NCBI GenBank assembly: GCA_965215185.1
Contig: OZ244034.1
Coordinates: forward strand, 1,088,001 to 1,152,000
Direction of reading: 5' to 3'
Length of the DNA stretch: 64,000 bases
Origin: Acidimicrobiia bacterium
Lineage (GTDB): Bacteria > Actinomycetota > Acidimicrobiia > Spongiisociales > ZC4RG35
Made by a program: the position numbers and the translations under genes. Numbering within the stretch: position 1 is the stretch's first letter; the number at the start of each line of letters is the position of its first letter. Shown here in pieces: positions 6,938 to 22,342 of the stretch. The notes beneath the pieces are model-generated. The model was not told the origin of the DNA. It did not search any database and saw only the letters and a list, made by a program, of their open reading frames with translations.

Positions 6938-7156
6938 GTGCCGGTATATACTGATCGCTTTATGAGACCTGATCCAAACATCGCCTTGATCCTCTCAATC
7001 TTTTTGGGTGGACTGGGAATTGATCGCATGTACGTTGGCCAAATCGGGCTGGGTGTGCTGAAGCTCCTCACCGCTGGGGGGCTGGGCATCTGGTGGCTGG
7101 TCGATTTGTTCCTGATCCGCGGGATAGCCCGGAAAGCCCAGCAAGAAGGCACTTAG
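6938..7156 (+). CDS. TM2-domain membrane protein, copy 1
   Basis: ALILSIFLGGLGIDRMYVGQIGLGVLKLLTAGGLGIWWLVD is a TM2 signature. Confidence 0.8.
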   Translation: MPVYTDRFMRPDPNIALILSIFLGGLGIDRMYVGQIGLGVLKLLTAGGLGIWWLVDLFLIRGIARKAQQEGT

Positions 7157-7512
7157 CACCCTGAGCGAGGGTTAAGGTGCAGACCGTCCTTCCCTCGGGG
7201 GACATGTCAAGTGCCCGACCTCACCTAAAGGCCGTGGCTGTCCGGTAACCGCTATTCCCAAAGGCGGATAGCGAGGGAACCGAGAAGGTTTGTGGGGGAC
7301 TTTTCTGATCAGTTGTGGGGTAGTTGCTAACTGTCTAGGTTCCGTCATCGGTTCCTTCGCCGGTGGAGCCTGGTATTCGGAGTCTGATTACGGTGCATTA
7401 GTCGCTGCCCAGGCAGCCGGTTCCATCAGTTTCGATAACGAACTCAGGGCCGAACTGTCCGGCGCAACGATCCCCGACCGCAAGTGGATGAATCTCAAAA
7501 CGGGACCGGTAG

Positions 7513-7619
7513 CGGTTTCGGAATTGGCCAGAAGTGGTTTCAGAATTTGCTGAAAGTGGTTTCACCGGCCTGTTCGCGCGATGCTGTGACCTGGGGCGTT
7601 GTGGTTTCGCGCCAGCGCC
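7513..7619 (-). repeat. Isolated copy of the DDE-element end
   Basis: GTTTC at 7515, 7537 and 7559, followed by GATGCTGTGACCTGGGG...GTTTCGCGCCAGCGCC. Confidence 0.7.
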
Positions 7620-7841
7620 GACCCAACAGGGCCTCTCACACGATCACAGAATACGTGTCCGCCAAACCGGGGGAACTCCATTACCACTCCACCCTTTCAA
7701 ATAGGCGGTTCAACCGCAAGCTCCTTCTTTGCAGCCCAACCCTACGGTAGTTGATCCTTTCGGGGTGGTTCCGGTGCGTTGGTGGTGTGATGTGAGTGCG
7801 GTGGTCAATTACTGAGGTTCCCCTAAGTCTCTACCAAACCC

Positions 7842-7971
7842 ACTCATACTGATAGGGGTCCCTTGGCCGGGGCGGGTCTGACCCATACCAAACCTGGCTT
7901 TTGCCTTTGCCCGATCTGTCGGCCTGTTTCCGGCTGAGGGATTGTTCACCGACCCGTGGGCGGATGTGACC
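7842..7971 (+). ncRNA. Truncated IS110 left end / bridge RNA with the target-binding loop only (element C)
   Basis: Highly similar to the reverse complement of 10800-10932; interrupted by an IS3 inverted repeat at 7972. Confidence 0.8.
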
Positions 7972-8025
7972 TGAACCGTGCCGATGCTCCTAGGATGCTC
8001 CTATTTTTGTCAAATCGAGAGCATC

Positions 8026-9252
8026 CTAGATATTCGCAGGGTTTTGTTGGGTGAGCCATTGTTGGTATTGGGTGGCGAGGTGGTGGTTGTGGTATAGGCC
8101 TCGTTCGAGTTGGGAGATGCGGTTGGGGTGGGTTTGGAGGGCGGTGGCGGCGTGGGTGAGGGTGGTCTGTGTGTGGTGGCGTTGGGTGCGTAGGAGGGCG
8201 CCGTTGGGTGTTGGTGGTGGGTTGGTGAGCAGGTGGTAGATCTCTCGGGCGATGTGGCGTTTTAGGCAGCGGATGATCTCCCGGCGGGTTTTGCTCTCGG
8301 TTTGGCGGCGGTGGGTGTATTCGATGGTGGGTTGATGGCAGCGCATCCGGGTGGTGGCGATACGCCATAAGGCGTTGTTGGCTTGGCGGTCGCCGCCTCT
8401 GTTGAGCCGGTGGCGTATGGTCTGCCCGGAGGAGGCCTGGACGGGACTGGCGCCGCATAATGCTGCGAAAGACGCTTCGGTGGTCAGGCGTTTGGGGTTG
8501 TCTCCTGCTGTGACCAGCAAAGCGGCGGCCGTGTCAGGACCGACACCCGGGGCGGAGAGCAGCGCCGGGTTGGCTCGGGAACAAAGACGAGTGATCTCTT
8601 TGTCGAGTTCTTTGATCTCGGTGGTGAGCGCCTGGCAGCGGCGCGCCAGATAGCGCAGTGTTTTCTTGGCGACCGTGGTGGTGGTATCGGCTGTGCCGGG
8701 ACGAAACCCGGCACAGGCTCGGATCCGGGCTTTGGTCGACAGTCCCCGGAGTTGGTGTTTGACCTGCTCGGGAGCGGTGACCACTAGGGCGTGGAGTTGG
8801 TTGATGGCCTGGGTGCGGGCTTTGATTGCGGAACGGCGGACTACCCGCAACATCCTGATTCCCTCGACCAGTCCGTCGGCGGTTTTGGGTCGGGCGGTGG
8901 CTTCACCGTTGAGAGCGGCCCGCCCGGCGGCTTGGGCGTCGGTGGTGTCGGTTTTTCCCAGTCGGCGGCGCAGCTGACGGTTGGGACGGTTGACTTCTAC
9001 CACCTCGATACCGATCCCGGTGAGATAGCGGGTCAGGCCGGCGCCGTAGCTGCCGGTGCCTTCCACCCCAACCCGCACCACACGACCCTGGGATCTCAAC
9101 CAGCCGCCCAGTTCCTCAAAGCCGGTTGCATCGGCCGGGAACGGAGCGGTTCCCAGGACTCGACCGGCGGTGTCCACTGCCGCCGCGACATGACAATCGC
9201 GATGGGTGTCCACCCCGCCAAACACCTCGACCAGGCTCTCTTTTTGTGACAT
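8026..9252 (-). CDS. IS110-family DEDD recombinase with a C-terminal XRE-like HTH
   Basis: GGVDTH, GVEGTG, GKTDTTDA, QASSG, RGGDRQAN; tail LRTQR...TLTHAATALQTHPNRISQLERG. Confidence 0.95.
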   Translation of the reverse strand: MSQKESLVEVFGGVDTHRDCHVAAAVDTAGRVLGTAPFPADATGFEELGGWLRSQGRVVRVGVEGTGSYGAGLTRYLTGIGIEVVEVNRPNRQLRRRLGKTDTTDAQAAGRAALNGEATARPKTADGLVEGIRMLRVVRRSAIKARTQAINQLHALVVTAPEQVKHQLRGLSTKARIRACAGFRPGTADTTTTVAKKTLRYLARRCQALTTEIKELDKEITRLCSRANPALLSAPGVGPDTAAALLVTAGDNPKRLTTEASFAALCGASPVQASSGQTIRHRLNRGGDRQANNALWRIATTRMRCHQPTIEYTHRRQTESKTRREIIRCLKRHIAREIYHLLTNPPPTPNGALLRTQRHHTQTTLTHAATALQTHPNRISQLERGLYHNHHLATQYQQWLTQQNPANI

Positions 9253-9483
9253 GAATGTCTTCTTCTTCCTTGGATAGACTCGCGGGTATCACCGGACCGG
9301 AAGCGGTGGACAGAACACTCATGATGGTGTGGAGAAGCAAGGCTCCTATAAGGTCACATCCGCTCCCGGGTCGGGGAGTGTCCCCAGGCCGAAAGCAGGC
9401 CGACAGATCATAGATAAGGCACAAACGGCCAGTTTGTCAAGGGGTCAGACCCGCCCCGACCAAGGGACCCCACCATTATGAGT
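9253..9483 (-). ncRNA. Bridge RNA region of IS110 A
   Basis: Guide segments at 9432-9440 (left target), 9407-9413 (right target, 6/7 match), 9342-9349 and 9316-9322 (donor). Confidence 0.8.
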
Positions 9484-9488
9484 GTTTG

Positions 9489-10703
9489 TCAAATCGAGTT
9501 TTGTGTGGTGATCCATTGTTGGTATCGGGTGGCGAGTTGATGGTTGTGGTATTGGCCTCGCTCGAGTTGTGATAGGCGTATTGGGTAGGTGTGGAGGGCC
9601 TCGGCGGCGTGAGCGAGGGTTGTTCGCGTGTTTTTGCGTAGACAGCGCAGATGGGCGCCGTCGGGTGTGTCCGGTGGGTTGGTGAGCAGCCTGTGGATCT
9701 CTCGGGCGATGTGACGTTTGAGGCAGCGGATGATCTCGCGACGGTTTTTGCCTTCTGTTTGTCTTTTTTGGACATAGGCGATGGTTGGCTGGTGGCGGCG
9801 CATGCGGGTGGTGGCGATCCGCCACAGGGCCTGGTTGGCCTGGCGGTTCCCGCCGCGGTTGAGACGGTGCCGGACGGTACGTCCCGAGGACGCTTGGACA
9901 GGGCTTACGCCGCACAGAGCAGCGAAAGAGGATTCTGAGTGCATGCGTTCGGGGTTGTCGCCTGCTGCGACCAATAACACCGCGGCGGTGTCGGCGCCGA
10001 TCCCGGGGGCGGCCAACAGTGCCGGGTTGACCTGGGCGCAGAGATGGTTGATCTGGGTGGTGAGTTCTCCGATCTCTGCGGTGAGGGTCTGGTATCGGCG
10101 GGCCAGGGAACGCAACGCCGCTTTGGCGTATCTGATGGTGGTGTCGGCTGTGCCTGGGCGGAAACCGGCGCAGGTCTTTACGCGGGCTTTGGGAGAAAGT
10201 CCTCCAAGTTGGTGTCTGACCTGGTCGGGAGCGGTAACAATCAGGGCGTGCAGCTGGTTGATGGCCTGGGTTCGGGCTTTGGTCGCCGAACGGCGGGCCA
10301 CCGTGAGCATCCGTATTGCTTCTACTGGACCGTTACCGCTTTTGGGCACTGCGGTGGCCTGTCCGCTGAGAACCGCCCGAGCCGCGGCTTGGGCATCGGC
10401 GGTGTCAGTCTTGCCCAACCGGCGGCGCAACTGACGGTTTGCACGGTTCACTTCCACCGCCTCCATGCCGATACTGGTGAGGTGGCGGGCCAGACCGGCG
10501 CCGTAGCTGCCGGTGCCCTCCACCCCGACTCGGACCACCCTGCCGTGGGACTGTAGCCAATCGCCCAGTTGCTCATAACCGGCCGTGTCGACCGCGAAAG
10601 GGGCTGTTCCCAGGACTCGACCGGTGCTGTCCACCACCGCTGCCACATGAACATCCCGATGGGTGTCCACCCCACCAAACACATCTACCTGACCTACTGA
10701 CAT
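9489..10703 (-). CDS. IS110-family DEDD recombinase (element B) with a C-terminal XRE-like HTH
   Basis: Same motifs as element A; its TGA stop overlaps the right-end TTGACA. Confidence 0.95.
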   Translation of the reverse strand: MSVGQVDVFGGVDTHRDVHVAAVVDSTGRVLGTAPFAVDTAGYEQLGDWLQSHGRVVRVGVEGTGSYGAGLARHLTSIGMEAVEVNRANRQLRRRLGKTDTADAQAAARAVLSGQATAVPKSGNGPVEAIRMLTVARRSATKARTQAINQLHALIVTAPDQVRHQLGGLSPKARVKTCAGFRPGTADTTIRYAKAALRSLARRYQTLTAEIGELTTQINHLCAQVNPALLAAPGIGADTAAVLLVAAGDNPERMHSESSFAALCGVSPVQASSGRTVRHRLNRGGNRQANQALWRIATTRMRRHQPTIAYVQKRQTEGKNRREIIRCLKRHIAREIHRLLTNPPDTPDGAHLRCLRKNTRTTLAHAAEALHTYPIRLSQLERGQYHNHQLATRYQQWITTQNSI

Positions 10704-10932
10704 GATTCCTCCTACTCGGAATATAATTCGGGCTGTTCACCAGACCCGCTGGCGGATGGACAACACACTCATGGTGGTGGAGAAGCAAGGCTCCTATCAG
10801 GTCACATCCGCCCACGGGTCGGTGAACAATCCCCCAGCCGGAAAACAGGTCGACAGATCGGCACCAAGGCACAAAACCAGGTTTCATAAGGGTCAGACCC
10901 GCCCCGGCCAAGGGACCCCTATCAGTATGAGT
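10704..10932 (-). ncRNA. Bridge RNA region of IS110 B
   Basis: Guide segments at 10880-10888 and 10857-10864 (target), 10790-10797 and 10766-10772 (donor). Confidence 0.8.
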
Positions 10933-11150
10933 GGGTTTCATAGAGGGTTGGTTGTTTGTGTAATTGGGGGTTTGATCGGGTTGGTTTGATGGTAGTTGGT
11001 TTCGTGTTCGGCGGGGGTGGTGTAGGTGGTATCTGGGGTGATTCCGCGAGGGTGGCGAAGGTGGTGTGGTCAAGGTCTCGCCAGGGTCCCCGGTTGCGGA
11101 TCAGTTCAGTTTTGTATAGACCGATGGTGGTCTCTGCCAGGGCATTGTCA

Positions 11151-11529
11151 AAGCCTCTATGAGTTTTCTCAGGTCAACAACCACGAAATGGGTGTGCTGG
11201 TTGACAGGAGTCAGTCCAGGGACCTGTACATGCAGATCTACGACGAGGCGATGAGGATTGTACGCCTGAGCGACGAAATCCGGGTCAAGGTTGCCCGAGT
11301 ACCGAAAGCACCCGTCGAGGATCCCCGACCCGGTGAGGCTCCCACCTGTCCAAAGTGCAACGAGACCATGGTCGTTCGCACAGCCAGGAAAGGCGCCAAC
11401 AAGGGCGAAACCTTTTGGGGGTGCTCCACCTTCCCCAAGTGCTGGGGCATGAGGCCTCTTGAAACTGCCCAAGCTGCCCCAAAGACCCCTTCCCGACGTG
11501 GGTTCCGTTCCCGACGGAAACGTTCTTAG
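11151..11529 (+). pseudogene. 5'-truncated gene: PLD-like C-terminal piece plus topoisomerase-type C4 zinc ribbon
   Basis: LYEFSQVNNHEMGVL...CPKCNETMVVR...FWGCSTFPKC. Confidence 0.65.
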
Positions 11530-11596
11530 CGATCACCCTAAGTACTCGCTGGCTTAGTCCTTAGGGGGTCGGTCGGTTAGTGAGGCTGGACCAGAG

Positions 11597-12050
11597 CTAT
11601 AGGTTTGGTCCAGTCGTTTGGCCACGATCCTGCCCGAGTCCGGCCAGACAGTCGGCCATGTCGTTCAAGGCGTGTCCGGAATGGCTTTTCACCTTCTCCC
11701 AGCGGATGTCCCGTCCGTTGAGCAGCCCGGCGATGGTTTCGATCAGTTCTCTGTGCGCCACCGGTTTACCCCCGGATCTCCGCATGTTGCGCTCGCGCCA
11801 ACCGGGAAGCCATTTGGTGAACGTTTTGATGACATATCTGCTGTCCGCTTGGATCAACAGCGGCTGGTCCGGTGGGAGAGACACCTAGAGTCTCGAGGAG
11901 GGCGGTCAGTTCCATGGCTTGGTGCGTTGTGTTGGGGTCACTGCCCCATTGGTACCGGCCGTCTTCGGTGGCCCATCCCCAGCCACCGGCGCCGCCCCTA
12001 ATTTCGCCAGACCCGTCAGTAGCGACAGTCAATCTTCTCATTTTGTTCAC
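11597..12050 (-). pseudogene. rnhA: Ribonuclease HI, frameshifted near 11886
   Basis: TDGS...GWG...MELTA in one frame; DSRYVI...W...KPV...WEKVKSHSGHALNDMAD in the next. Confidence 0.8.
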
Positions 12051-20705: not shown

Positions 20706-20878
20706 CGTTTCAGGAATAGCCAAAACTGGTTTCGGAATTGGCTGAAAGTGATTTCAGCGTCCTGTTTGCGGGATGCTGTGACCTGGGGTGTTTTGGTTTC
20801 GCGCCAGCGCCCAAGGGCGGGGTTGGCGCGAAACTGTTGGGGTTTCTGTGCTTATGGTAGTTGGGGCGGAGAGTGGGG
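20706..20878 (-). repeat. DDE-element end of copy 3, separated from its transposase by an IS3 insertion
   Basis: (G/A)TTTC at 20707, 20729 and 20751; homology continues at 22202. Confidence 0.75.
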
Positions 20879-20976
20879 TGAACCGCGCCGGGTTTGGTAG
20901 AGGGTTTGGTGGTACCCGACTTTGGTGGAGTCGGGTTATTTGAATTGGTGGTGTGACTGACCCGGAAGGAGTCTTC

Positions 20977-21285
20977 ATGCCTTATCGATATCCACCCGAG
21001 TTCCGTCGCAGGGTGCTGGATCTGCTGGCAGTTGGCAGGTCGGTAGCGTCGTTGTCAGCGGATCTTGGGGTGTCTGATCAGACGATCTACAACTGGCGGC
21101 GCCAAGACCGAATCGACCGCGGTCTACAACCGGGTGCCACTTCGGAGGAACAGGCCGAACTGTGGGCCGCTCGCTGTCGGATCGTCGAGCTGGAAACCGA
21201 ACTGGCCGTGACCAAGCGGGCTATTGAACTGCTGGGAGACCAGGTGGTGCACCTCAAAGACGCTACCAGGCGATCCGGACCATGA
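20977..21285 (+). CDS. IS3-family OrfA
   Basis: MPYRYPPEFRRRVL...LGVSDQTIYNWRRQ HTH. Confidence 0.85.
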   Translation: MPYRYPPEFRRRVLDLLAVGRSVASLSADLGVSDQTIYNWRRQDRIDRGLQPGATSEEQAELWAARCRIVELETELAVTKRAIELLGDQVVHLKDATRRSGP

Positions 21286-22153
21286 GAACCGAAGGGCTTC
21301 CCAGGTGGCGTGTCGAGTGCTCGAGGTGTCACAGTCCGGGTTCTACGCCAGGGTGGTCCCGGCCGCCGTCAGCCCGCTTGCATCCGCCACGCCTGGTTGA
21401 CCGACGTCATCTGTCACATCCATGAACAGTCACGCGGCACCTATGGGGCGCGGCGGGTGCACGCCGAACTGCGGTTGGGTCATGGAATAACCGTCGGACA
21501 CAACGCAGTAGCGATGCTGATGCGCAGAGCCGGTCTAGCTGGTCTTAGTAGGTGACCGAAGTCCCAGACGGCGGACCCGCCCGGTGGACACGCCCGGTGG
21601 ACCTGGTCGACCGTAACTTCGCCCGTTTCGAACCGGACCAACTGTGGGTGACCGATATCACAGAGCATCCCACCCGGCAAGCGCAAGGTGTACTGCGCGG
21701 TGGTGCTGGACGTGTACGGGCCGCCGGGTCGTCGGCTGGTCGATCGACAACACGGCCACCTCCGGACTGGTCACCTCCGCGTTAGGTATGGCAATCGGGA
21801 ACCGCCAACCCGACCCCGGCACGGTCATACATTCGGACCAGGGCACCCAATTCACCTCCTGGGCGTTCACCCAACGGGCCCTCGAATCCGGTCTGGTTCC
21901 GTCCATGGGAACCGTCGGGGACTGTTTCGATAACGCCACCATGGAATCGTTTTGGGCTCGTATGCAGGTCGAGCTGTTGGACCGCAGGAGGTGGAGGACC
22001 CGTATCGAACTCGCCAACGCTATCTTCGAGTACCTAGAGATCTTCCACAACCGCCACCGGCGCCACACCGCACTGGAAATGCGCACCCCCATCGAATACG
22101 AAAGAAACCACAACAACAACCTAACCATCGCACCACTGATCCAAGTGAGCTGA
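21282..22153 (+). pseudogene. IS3-family OrfB, multiply frameshifted
   Basis: YGARRVHAEL, LWVTDIT, HSDQGTQF, DNATMESF. Confidence 0.85.
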
Positions 22154-22342
22154 CTCCACAAAACCGGGGGACCATCACTCTATGAATCCCGGTACGGTTC
22201 AGGGGGTTGGTTGTGGCGCGGGTGGGGTTTATGTGAGGTTTTGAGGGGCTGGATCTAGGGGTTTTGGAGTGTGGGCCGCGGTGATCCAGGGCTTTTGGGT
22301 GTTTGGCCCGCGGTGATCTGGGGCGGGGTGGTTTTGGGGTGT

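What the first reader, a model, noticed from the sequence alone, without database searches (positions are those of the whole stretch)
7972..10945. IS110 programmed against IS3-family terminal inverted repeats
Seen: removing elements A and B rejoins TGAACCGTGCC|GGGTTTCATAGAG, which is 22/24 identical to the intact IR at 22178-22201 and lies next to an IS3 OrfB C-terminus. Element C's flank (reverse GGGTTTGGTAGAG) is the inner half of the IR variant seen intact at 20879-20902. So the B and C guides track two IR variants (TATG vs TACC). Established: some IS1111-group elements target Tn21 IRs. Inference: RNA-guided parasitism of an abundant IS, which would also immobilise it.
Basis: partly seen in the sequence, partly recalled or inferred. 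Interest (0 to 1): 0.82.

Follow-up and report, generated by a model that had tools for sequence, protein, structure and literature searches.

The report
IS110 elements nested inside an IS3 end
Two RNA-guided IS110-type jumping genes sit one inside the other within the terminal repeat of an IS3-type jumping gene, and their guide sequences match the places they landed in; this is a clear natural example of a behaviour already known for this family.

Summary
B (9485-10933 plus its last 11 nt at 7983-7993) is an IS110-family element inserted 11 bp from the outer end of an IS3-family terminal repeat. Removing A and B restores TGAACCGTGCCGGGTTTCATAGAG. That is 22/24 to the repeat at 22178-22201 and 24/24 to an empty repeat elsewhere in the genome. 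A (7994-9484) is not beside B. It sits inside B's right end, and its own guide matches that site 9/9.

The left ends encode a two-loop bridge-type RNA. Its left target guide equals the copy's own left flank at 8/9 or better in 31 of 44 copies, against 5 of 1672 cross pairs. B and C differ mainly in this loop (TATG versus TACC), matching two repeat variants.

Junctions between an IS110 right end and an IS3 outer half occur 4 times in this genome and in 5 other species of the genus. Relics also occur in Mycobacterium, Nonomuraea and Actinoallomurus records.

The clade also targets IS3 orfA, sibling IS110 right ends and another IS110's gene, so IS3 ends are one target among several. Immobilisation of IS3 is untested. 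Published precedents are IS1383/IS1384, IS4321/IS5075 and ISEc21. I file this as a new member of a known kind.

The parts
7829..7841 (+). Inner half of an IS3-type terminal repeat (CTCTACCAAACCC), the left flank of element C. Base 7841 is the shared junction C.
   Evidence: Identical to the inner half of the intact repeat at 20879-20902. The similarity to other repeat copies runs a few bases further (GAGACTTAGG, seen by eye).
7841..7974 (+). Element C: a left-end (bridge-RNA region) fragment of an IS110-family element, 92% identical to B's left end. It is cut at about position 134-137 by the outer end of the IS3 remnant.
7886..7894 (+). Left target guide of C (TACCAAACC).
   Evidence: Matches C's own flank 9/9. 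Position.
7972..7982 (+). Outer 11 bp of the terminal repeat of the IS3 remnant (TGAACCGTGCC), separated from its inner half by B and A.
7983..7993 (-). Last 11 nt of B's right end (CTAGGAGCATC in sense), displaced by A's insertion.
   Evidence: Right-end consensus ...GATTTGACAAnnATAGGAGCATC|flank from 18 right ends. Pattern TAGGAGCATCCTAGGAGCATC found at this place.
7994..9484 (-). Element A: a complete IS110-family element of about 1491 bp, inserted in B's right end. Transposase gene 8026-9252, left-end non-coding region 9253-9484.
   Evidence: Its left-end half is 99.1% identical over 441 nt to G000:C1:2340786-2341224.
9432..9440 (-). Left target guide of A (TTGACAAAC), identical to B's right-end sequence immediately left of A.
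   Evidence: 9/9 match.
9485..10933 (-). Element B main body: IS110-family element. Transposase gene 9489-10703, left-end non-coding region 10704-10933.
   Evidence: A and B proteins are 74% identical.
10880..10888 (-). Left target guide of B (TATGAAACC).
   Evidence: 9/9 match to the inner half of the repeat. Position.
10859..10865 (-). Right target guide of B (GGTGCCG). Its complement CGGCACC fits the junction C plus the outer half (CGGCACG) at 6 of 7 positions.
10766..10797 (-). Candidate donor-binding loop of B. ATAGGAGC (10790-10797) equals the right-end tip. ATGAGTG (10766-10772) is complementary to the left-end tip CACTCAT.
   Evidence: Alignments. The pairing TGAGTG/CACTCA is invariant in 19 of 19 copies. 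The fold gives two stem-loops, z = -5.4.
10933..10945 (+). Inner half of the terminal repeat of the IS3 remnant (GGGTTTCATAGAG). Base 10933 is the shared junction base.
10946..11150 (-). Remnant of the 3' end of an IS3-family orfB (frameshifted). The rest of this IS3 is missing.
   Evidence: tblastn, 67-69% identity, E about 1e-16, to an OrfB C-terminus from G000:C1:3010417-3012542. That fragment is rve_3/rve_2. Nucleotide matches.
20879..22201 (+). IS3-family element with both terminal repeats unoccupied (20879-20902 and 22178-22201). orfA lies at 20953-21285. orfB is interrupted.
   Evidence: The orfB reading frame is broken in this copy.

Best explanation
This is a nest built by successive RNA-guided insertions of IS110-family (bridge-recombinase type) elements into other mobile elements.

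The guide RNA. Each element carries, in its roughly 230-nt left end, a non-coding RNA that folds into two stem-loops.
- The first stem-loop has an internal loop holding a 9-nt left target guide. This guide has the same sense as the DNA left of the insertion point. The loop also holds a 6-7-nt right target guide, complementary to the DNA right of the insertion point.
- The second stem-loop carries ATAGGAGC, which equals the element's right tip, and ATGAGTG, which is complementary to its left tip CACTCAT.

Inferred order of events.
1. C inserted next to an IS3-type repeat of the TACC variant.
2. An IS3-family element then inserted into C's left end.
3. B, a close relative of C with a TATG guide, inserted into that IS3's terminal repeat. 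It entered 11 bp from the outer end, with its left end toward the IS3 interior.
4. A, whose guide reads TTGACAAAC, inserted into B's right end 11 nt from its tip.
5. Most of the IS3 was later lost.

The pattern across the clade. IS3 terminal repeats are a recurrent target of this clade, but not the only one. Its guides have spread over several repeated, dispensable sequences, mostly other mobile elements. The likeliest reason (inferred) is that such sites are multi-copy and harmless to the host. Splitting the repeat probably disables that IS3 end, but this is not tested.

Shown: the anatomy, the guide-flank covariation, and the recurrence of the junctions. Inferred from the family: the circular intermediate, RNA expression, and recombination at the shared C.
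For: Family identity:
- Both proteins match PF01548 and PF02371 and NF033542 'IS110 family RNA-guided transposase' at 202 and 197 bits, cut-off 140.

RNA structure:
- The consensus fold of 10 and of 19 left ends gives a long stem enclosing an internal loop and a small hairpin. The variable guide positions lie in that loop.
- B's left end folds at -95.5 kcal/mol into two stem-loops, z = -5.4, with 0 of 200 shuffles folding as well.

Guide-flank covariation:
- Left guide against own left flank: 31 of 44 copies at 8/9 or better, and 39 of 44 at 7/9 or better. Cross pairs: 5 of 1672 at 8/9 or better.
- Right guide against own right flank: 8 of 17 at 6/7 or better, against 2 of 258 cross pairs.
- B scores 9/9 and 6/7. 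A scores 9/9 and 4/7. C scores 9/9 on the left.

Target site:
- The rejoined target is 24/24 identical to the empty repeat at G000:C1:1545650.
- B and C differ at 11 of 32 columns in the loop and 3 of 105 outside it, p = 5e-6.

Recurrence:
- The pattern AGGAGCATCGGNNCGGTTCA (up to 1 mismatch) hits 11 of 201 genomes of the family and 6 of 17 of the genus. G000 has 4 hits. The reversed-pattern control has 0.
- Right-end context was confirmed in the 6 loci I inspected.
- An exact scan of 185,579 species genomes returned 11 loci. Eight have an IS110-type right end (…CATAGGAGCATC): 2 Mycobacterium, 3 Nonomuraea, 2 Actinoallomurus and 1 Acidimicrobiia MAG.
- Right-end-inside-right-end nests at the same 11-nt position occur in G000 (2), G002 (2), G003, G006 and G015.

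Weak hint:
- Contigs in 2 runs from 2 studies join 7992 to 9483, skipping 1490 nt, which is the span of element A. This suggests a B without A. The shorter sides are only 21 and 18 nt.
Against: - Every junction between an IS110 right end and an IS3 outer half that I examined beyond B is a relic: a right-end fragment, a truncated element, or a nest. I found no intact IS3 carrying an intact IS110 in its repeat.
- Only B, C and c1005 carry repeat-type left guides in the 17 genomes of the genus. c1005 sits in IS3 orfA with a 6/9 left match.
- C's right guide (complement CGGGCAA) fits the repeat's outer half at only 3 of 7 positions, and C's right flank is lost.
- A perfect empty target persists at 1545650, and 8 repeats within 3 mismatches remain unoccupied. 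This shows no saturation and no sign of current activity.
- No copy in the genome is more than 84% identical to B over its full length.
- The crossover core is not defined. Only one C is conserved at both junctions. The guide-to-junction register differs by 1 nt between copies: 25 copies in register 0 and 14 in register 1.
- No Rfam family matched the region. I obtained no direct evidence of RNA expression or of a circular junction.
Confidence: 0.85

Rival explanations
1. This IS110 lineage is a dedicated parasite or antagonist of IS3-family elements. Its guides are kept tuned to IS3 terminal repeats, and insertion serves to immobilise IS3.
For: - In G000, 5 repeat ends are or were occupied: B, C, 971225, 1283647 and 978209. 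Eight intact repeats lie within 3 mismatches.
- The outer halves at the junctions are all different (GGCAC, GGTAC, GGTGC, GGCGC, GGAGC, GGGGC...), so the events are independent.
- The left guides of B, c1005 and C form a series of single-base steps, TATG, TACG, TACC.
- A further copy, c1005, hits IS3 orfA.
- The junction relic is widespread in Actinomycetota.
- Insertion separates the terminal TG from the inner half of the repeat.
Against: - 9 of the 12 left-end copies in G000 target something other than IS3.
- In 16 other genomes of the genus, none of 37 left-end copies carries a repeat-type guide.
- Empty, perfectly matched repeats persist.
- Most IS3 copies of this type are already decayed without any IS110 in them. 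Only 1 of 6 has an uninterrupted orfB.
- Immobilisation was not tested.
- IS3 elements also insert into IS110 left ends (C and the copy at 1282430), so the damage runs both ways.
Confidence: 0.25
2. The guide-flank identity is produced after insertion. Flank sequence would be copied into the loop, or the reverse, by gene conversion or repair. The guide would then not select the site.
For: None directly. The identity alone cannot show the direction of cause.
Against: - The guide lies 45 nt inside the element, within a conserved stem. Two separate guides match the two flanks on opposite strands.
- Copies with the same guide sit in homologous targets at different loci: c374/c979, c3012/c3102, L027/L030.
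- The mechanism has been shown experimentally for IS621 (PMC11208160, passages read) and for ISEc21 (PMC11187229, passages read).
Confidence: 0.03
3. The arrangement arose by homologous recombination or tandem duplication among IS copies, not by targeted insertion of A into B.
For: - A 2026 preprint describes tandem duplication and repeated local insertion at IS110 loci (10.64898/2026.08.14.744561, passages read).
- The genome is full of rearranged IS fragments.
Against: - A and B are only about 75% identical in DNA and 74% in protein, so this is not a duplication.
- A's boundaries are exact: a full left end and a full right end.
- B's right end resumes exactly where it was interrupted, and A's guide matches the site 9/9.
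- The same 11-nt nest recurs in 4 other species.
Confidence: 0.03

Closest known systems
IS621 and other IS110-group bridge-RNA recombinases (Durrant et al. 2024, PMC11208160; passages read)
   Same: - A DEDD/RuvC-like domain plus a Tnp domain.
- A long non-coding left end upstream of the gene.
- An RNA with a target-binding loop and a donor-binding loop.
- A left guide in the sense of the left target and a right guide complementary to the right target.
- No terminal inverted repeats.
- Targets that are repeated sequences.
   Different: - The target here is another IS's terminal repeat, not a REP element.
- No CT core: only a single conserved C is seen at both junctions, and the register varies by 1 nt.
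- No Rfam model matched.
- Nothing here has been tested at the bench.
IS1383, which targets the inverted repeats of IS1384 in Pseudomonas putida H (Muller et al. 2001). I saw only its title, in the reference list of PMC11208160; the paper itself was not read.
   Same: An IS110-family element whose specific integration site is the terminal inverted repeat of another insertion sequence.
   Different: A different host phylum and a different target IS. The guide basis was not known when that paper appeared. I could not compare sequences.
IS4321/IS5075, which target the terminal repeats of Tn21-family transposons (Partridge and Hall 2003). I saw only the title, in the reference lists.
   Same: Site- and orientation-specific insertion at a fixed position inside a transposon's terminal inverted repeat.
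   Different: Those belong to the IS1111 group, with subterminal inverted repeats and the non-coding region downstream of the gene (PMC11187229). The elements here have the non-coding region upstream, and I saw no subterminal repeats.
ISEc21, an IS110-family element with an upstream non-coding region (Siddiquee et al. 2024, PMC11187229; passage read)
   Same: An IS110-type element whose natural target lies inside IS3-family elements. Target choice depends on the upstream non-coding RNA.
   Different: [quoted passage not shown] Copy c1005 here, in IS3 orfA, is the nearer analogue.
IS6110 hot spot in IS1547 (the ipl locus) in the Mycobacterium tuberculosis complex (PMC3701491, passage read). That IS1547 belongs to the IS110 family is my recollection.
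   Same: An IS3-family element repeatedly inserted into an IS110-family element. Here IS3 copies interrupt the left ends of C and of the copy at G000:C1:1282430. IS6110 ends begin TGAACCGCCCCGG; the only two papers holding that string are IS6110 papers (listing only). This is the same outer-half type as here.
   Different: The direction is opposite to the finding. No preference is shown here (2 events).

Membership tests
IS110 family (IS110 group, bridge-RNA type) | Transposase with an N-terminal DEDD/RuvC-like domain (PF01548) and a C-terminal Tnp domain (PF02371) | tested here: met
   A at E 4e-23 and 3e-20, B at E 2e-26 and 6e-20. NF033542 at 197 and 202 bits, cut-off 140.
IS110 family (IS110 group, bridge-RNA type) | Long non-coding region upstream of the gene (left end) and a short right end | tested here: met
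   The left end is about 230 nt (10704-10933 and 9253-9484). B's stop codon lies inside the right-end consensus.
IS110 family (IS110 group, bridge-RNA type) | Left-end RNA folding into two stem-loops, each with an internal guide loop | tested here: met
   The first loop is supported by consensus folds of 10 and 19 copies, with 5 and 7 pairs showing compensatory changes. Both stem-loops appear in the single-sequence fold of B, z = -5.4. I did not separately count covariation in the stem of the second loop.
IS110 family (IS110 group, bridge-RNA type) | Target guides match the flanking target DNA on both sides | tested here: met
   31 of 44 against 5 of 1672 on the left, and 8 of 17 against 2 of 258 on the right.
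IS110 family (IS110 group, bridge-RNA type) | Donor guides match the element's own right and left tips | tested here: met
   ATAGGAGC in the second loop equals the right-end tip ATAGGAGCATC. TGAGTG is complementary to the left tip CACTCA in 19 of 19 copies.
IS110 family (IS110 group, bridge-RNA type) | A conserved core dinucleotide shared by target and donor | tested here: inconclusive
   Only one C is conserved at both junctions. The base before it varies on the left junction, and the base after it varies on the right. The guide register differs by 1 nt between copies.
IS110 family (IS110 group, bridge-RNA type) | Circular intermediate, RNA bound by the recombinase, and reprogrammable insertion | not testable with these tools
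   Public contigs laid on the region cannot show circles or RNA ends.
IS1111 group (IS4321/IS5075 type) | Subterminal inverted repeats and a non-coding region downstream of the gene | tested here: not met
   The non-coding region is upstream. The tips CACTCATA... and ...ATAGGAGCATC are not inverted repeats of each other (read by eye). The definition is from PMC11187229.
IS elements that target terminal repeats of other transposons | Insertion at one fixed position and in one orientation inside the repeat, in independent events | tested here: met
   All 9 junctions between a right end and an outer half in the genus place the right-end tip directly against GGnnCG(G/A)TTCA, 11 bp from the IS3 outer end. 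B shows both halves. One possible left junction in G007 (L011) is shifted by 2 nt.
IS3 family (the target element) | orfA with HTH_Tnp_1, orfB with an rve integrase core, and terminal repeats beginning TG | tested here: met
   Intact copy at 20879-22201: PF01527, and PF00665/PF13683/PF13333, with repeats starting TGAACCG. For the remnant next to B, only the OrfB C-terminus is present, shown by tblastn to a fragment that is rve_3/rve_2. A direct Pfam scan of a 35-aa stop-free piece of the remnant matched no family.

The most novel reading that the evidence does not exclude
An old and widespread association in Actinomycetota. In this reading, one IS110 clade has spread its bridge-RNA target loops over the ends and genes of other mobile elements. 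The targets are IS3/IS6110-type terminal repeats, IS3 orfA, the right ends of sibling IS110 elements, and another IS110 group's transposase gene. Guides would move in single-base steps (TATG, TACG, TACC) that follow repeat variants. The result would be layered IS-on-IS nests that recur across species. IS3 elements insert back into IS110 left ends, so this would be a reciprocal conflict between two IS families rather than neutral use of safe sites.
Probability: 0.3. Interest if true: 0.6.

Novelty: new member of a known kind. Interest (0 to 1): 0.42.

Why it matters
This locus is a clean natural record of how bridge-RNA guides are retargeted. Two sister left ends differ almost only in the target loop. 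Their guides match two variants of the same 24-bp IS3 terminal repeat, and a third copy carries the intermediate guide.

It also shows that IS3/IS6110-type ends have been hit repeatedly by IS110-type elements in several actinobacterial lineages. In addition, one sub-lineage lands inside its relatives' right ends at a fixed position.

Two questions become testable with natural sequences. How few guide changes move an IS110 between related targets? Does an insertion 11 bp from an IS3 tip disable that end?

The general behaviour is already in print: an IS110-family element inserting in another transposon's repeat, and an IS110-type element targeting IS3-family elements. The value here is as a well-resolved example, not a new principle.

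Tried and rejected
Searches and tests that gave nothing:
- Rfam scan of 7000-12000 at E up to 1: no family matched.
A shorter in-frame piece of 35 aa matched nothing. I used tblastn instead.
- The order-level pattern search returned no usable answer. I repeated it at family level.
- Metagenome scan for left ends with repeat-type guides: 0 hits.
- A second metagenome scan with a looser left-junction pattern (16 specified bases) returned at least 119 stretches. None of the 80 loci handed over has the left-end motif downstream, so they are chance matches and the scan was uninformative.
- In the global exact scan, 3 of 11 loci (two Dorea MAGs and one Cytophagales MAG, 46-50% GC) lack an IS110-type right-end context. 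I treat them as chance or unrelated.
- In the Mycobacterium, Nonomuraea and Actinoallomurus loci I found no complete element and no left end within 1.8-2.2 kb. At most there were C-terminal transposase fragments.

Public sequencing runs:
- Public contigs laid on 7600-11300 are short and dominated by paralogues.
- Most joints (8412/9942, 8547/10011, 9409/10902) connect homologous positions of A and B and say nothing.
- Depth cannot be interpreted.
- I could not define the crossover core.

Ideas considered and rejected:
- That the two repeat variants are simply the left and right ends of one IS3. Another copy has them swapped.
- That A lies beside B. The right-end consensus shows B's tip on the far side of A.

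- Supplementary files of the papers were not requested. Supplementary target tables of PMC11187229 and PMC11208160 might already list IS3-repeat targets, and I could not see them.

Full report
WHAT IS THERE. The window lies in a single-contig genome of 3.12 Mb with 60.7% G+C. Between 7972 and 10945 the minus strand holds two IS110-family transposase genes, at 8026-9252 and 9489-10703. Both match PF01548 and PF02371. Both also match NCBIfam NF033542, 'IS110 family RNA-guided transposase', above its cut-off. The two proteins are 74% identical. The flanks are TGAACCGTGCC (7972-7982) and GGGTTTCATAGAG (10933-10945). Joined, they read TGAACCGTGCCGGGTTTCATAGAG. It is also 24/24 identical to an unoccupied IS3 end at G000:C1:1545650-1545673. 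The intact element at 20879-22201 is IS3-family: orfA carries HTH_Tnp_1 and orfB carries rve domains. The 200 bp right of B match the C-terminus of an IS3-family OrfB, and the fragment it matches is rve_3/rve_2.

BOUNDARIES, AND A CORRECTION. An alignment of 18 right ends from the genome gives the consensus ...CTCGATTTGACAAnnATAGGAGCATC followed by the flank. B's sequence stops at ...GATTTGACAAA and runs straight into A's left tip, CACTCATA. B's missing tip, CTAGGAGCATC, lies on the far side of A at 7983-7993, directly against the IS3 outer half. So A (7994-9484) is inserted inside B's right end, 11 nt from its tip. B is therefore 9485-10933 plus 7983-7993. Element C (7841-7974, plus strand) is a left-end fragment 92% identical to B's left end. 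It ends where the IS3 outer end TGAACC... begins, so that IS3 inserted into C before B entered the IS3.

THE GUIDE RNA. The genome holds 12 left-end copies. In all of them a conserved stem, GGGTCTGAC...GATCTGTC, encloses an internal loop. The 9 nt before a conserved TGG vary from copy to copy and equal the copy's own left flank. I fetched 37 more left ends from 13 other species of the genus, giving 50 rows in all. I dropped 6 rows: 5 were cut by contig ends and 1 was a duplicate fetch. Of the remaining 44, 31 match their own flank at 8/9 or better and 39 at 7/9 or better. Among non-self pairs with different guides, 5 of 1672 reach 8/9. The 7 nt just before ATCTGTC are complementary to the right flank, starting at the junction C. 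Here 8 of 17 copies score 6/7 or better, against 2 of 258 cross pairs. Consensus folding of 10 and of 19 left ends recovers the stem, the internal loop and the small hairpin, with some compensatory pairs. B's left end alone folds into two long stem-loops at -95.5 kcal/mol, z = -5.4. The second stem-loop carries ATAGGAGC, which equals the right tip. It also carries TGAGTG, which is complementary to the left tip in 19 of 19 copies. This is the architecture described for IS621 bridge RNAs (PMC11208160, passages read). Rfam has no model that matches it.

THE THREE ELEMENTS.
- B: the left guide TATGAAACC matches the inner half of the repeat 9/9. The complement of the right guide, CGGCACC, matches the junction C plus the outer half 6/7.
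- C: the left guide TACCAAACC matches its flank 9/9, and that flank is the inner half of the repeat variant at 20879-20902. C's right guide fits the outer half poorly (3/7), and its right flank is lost.
- A: the left guide TTGACAAAC matches B's right end 9/9. The right guide matches 4/7.
B and C differ at 11 of 32 columns inside the loop and at 3 of 105 outside it, Fisher p = 5e-6. The variants are not simply left and right ends, because the IS3 copy at 1544357-1545673 has them swapped. A third copy, c1005, carries the intermediate guide TACGAAACC but sits in IS3 orfA. Its left guide matches there 6/9, and the complement of its right guide (CGAACTA) matches the orfA sequence right of the insertion point (CGAACTG, read from the intact copy) 6/7.

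HOW GENERAL IS THE TARGETING OF IS3 REPEATS?
- In this genome the right-end tip abuts an IS3 outer half 4 times: 971225, 1095972 (B), 1283647 and 978209. The same junction occurs in G002, G003, G006, G007 and G011. The reversed-pattern control gives 0 hits. I confirmed the right-end context in the six loci fetched.
- The outer halves at these junctions differ, so the events are independent.
- Across 201 genomes of the family, 11 have a match with up to 1 mismatch. By my estimate about one such hit is expected by chance at that setting.
- An exact scan of one genome per species returned 11 loci. Eight have an IS110-type right end: Mycobacterium 2, Nonomuraea 3, Actinoallomurus 2 and an Acidimicrobiia MAG 1. 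Three look like chance.
- Every junction I examined other than B is a relic.
- Repeat-type left guides occur only in B, C and c1005 among the 17 genomes of the genus.
- In G000, 8 repeats within 3 mismatches of the two variants are unoccupied, against 5 occupied or once-occupied ends.

OTHER TARGETS OF THE CLADE.
- c374 and c979 sit in the transposase gene of another IS110 group, about 44% identical.
- c2341 sits in that group's right end. c909 sits in a similar ...GATTTGCAAAA sequence.
- c3012, c3102, c2345 and c2398 sit in other repeated DNA.
- Nests of a right end inside a right end at the same 11-nt position occur in G000 (2), G002 (2), G003, G006 and G015. A further hit at 2 mismatches is doubtful, and the control gave 2 hits in one genome at that setting.
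The clade thus mainly lands in other mobile or repeated DNA, and IS3 repeats are one recurrent target among these.

ACTIVITY.
- No second copy of B exists above 84% identity.
- A's left-end half has a 99.1% identical partner over 441 nt.
- Both A and B have open transposase frames.
- A's insertion leaves TAGGAGCATC at the outer end of the composite. The B::A composite therefore still ends in recognisable tips. Whether it can move is inference.
- In public contigs from two studies, one joint skips 7993-9482, which is the span of element A. The shorter sides are only 21 and 18 nt. This is a weak hint that a B without A exists elsewhere.

COMPARISON WITH WHAT IS KNOWN. IS110-type elements that insert in the terminal repeats of other transposons are in print: IS1383 into IS1384, and IS4321/IS5075 into Tn21-family transposons. 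I saw these only as titles in reference lists. ISEc21, an IS110-type element with an upstream non-coding RNA, targets a conserved stretch of IS3-family transposase genes (PMC11187229, passage read). Searches combining IS110 with IS3, inverted repeats, nested insertion or hyperparasitism found no paper describing an IS110 element in IS3-family terminal repeats. Subscription journals and supplementary files were not searched. The reverse relation, IS6110 inserting into IS1547, is known (PMC3701491). It has a parallel here in two IS3 insertions into IS110 left ends.

VERDICT. The 'parasitism and immobilisation' reading is plausible but untested, and it is too narrow for the clade as a whole. I file this as a new member of a known kind, of moderate interest as a natural record of guide retargeting.

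Noticed in passing
window 7841-7974, and G000:C1:1282357-1282430: IS3-family elements have inserted into the left (bridge-RNA) ends of two IS110 copies: C, and the copy at 1282430-1283655. This is the reverse of the finding. It resembles the published IS6110 hot spot in IS1547.
   Followed up: partly
window 7520-7610 and 20720-20812; also G000:C1:1093268, 1314043, 1322549, 1105977: A repeat of about 110 bp (80-85% identity, at least 6 copies) lies near several IS ends. Its nature is unknown; it may be a small non-autonomous element.
   Followed up: no
G000:C1:1005645 (copy c1005): This IS110 copy sits inside IS3 orfA. Its left guide TACGAAACC is one base away from both B's and C's guides. Its right guide matches the orfA site instead of the repeat.
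   Followed up: partly
G000:C1:374093 and 979955 (copies c374, c979): Two copies share the guide AACTCAACC and are inserted at the same codon region (about residue 292) of the transposase gene of a different IS110 group (about 44% identity). Several uninterrupted copies of that gene exist.
   Followed up: partly
G000:C1:3010417-3012542: Two IS3 right-end fragments in inverted orientation, each with an OrfB C-terminus and a terminal repeat, flank a 469-aa open frame on the minus strand. That frame was not identified.
   Followed up: no
window 11026-11529 (+): An open frame with a topoisomerase-type C4 zinc ribbon (PF01396) begins where the IS3 remnant breaks off.
   Followed up: no
left junctions of 39 copies: The 9-nt left guide ends either on the junction C (25 copies) or one base before it (14 copies, all with an extra C in the target). 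The base after the guide is a conserved T, which as U could wobble-pair opposite that extra C. The true crossover core is unresolved.
   Followed up: partly
window 20879-22201 and five other IS3 copies in G000: Only 1 of 6 near-full-length copies of this IS3 type (about 2332855-2334180) has an uninterrupted orfB. The window copy's orfB is broken.
   Followed up: partly
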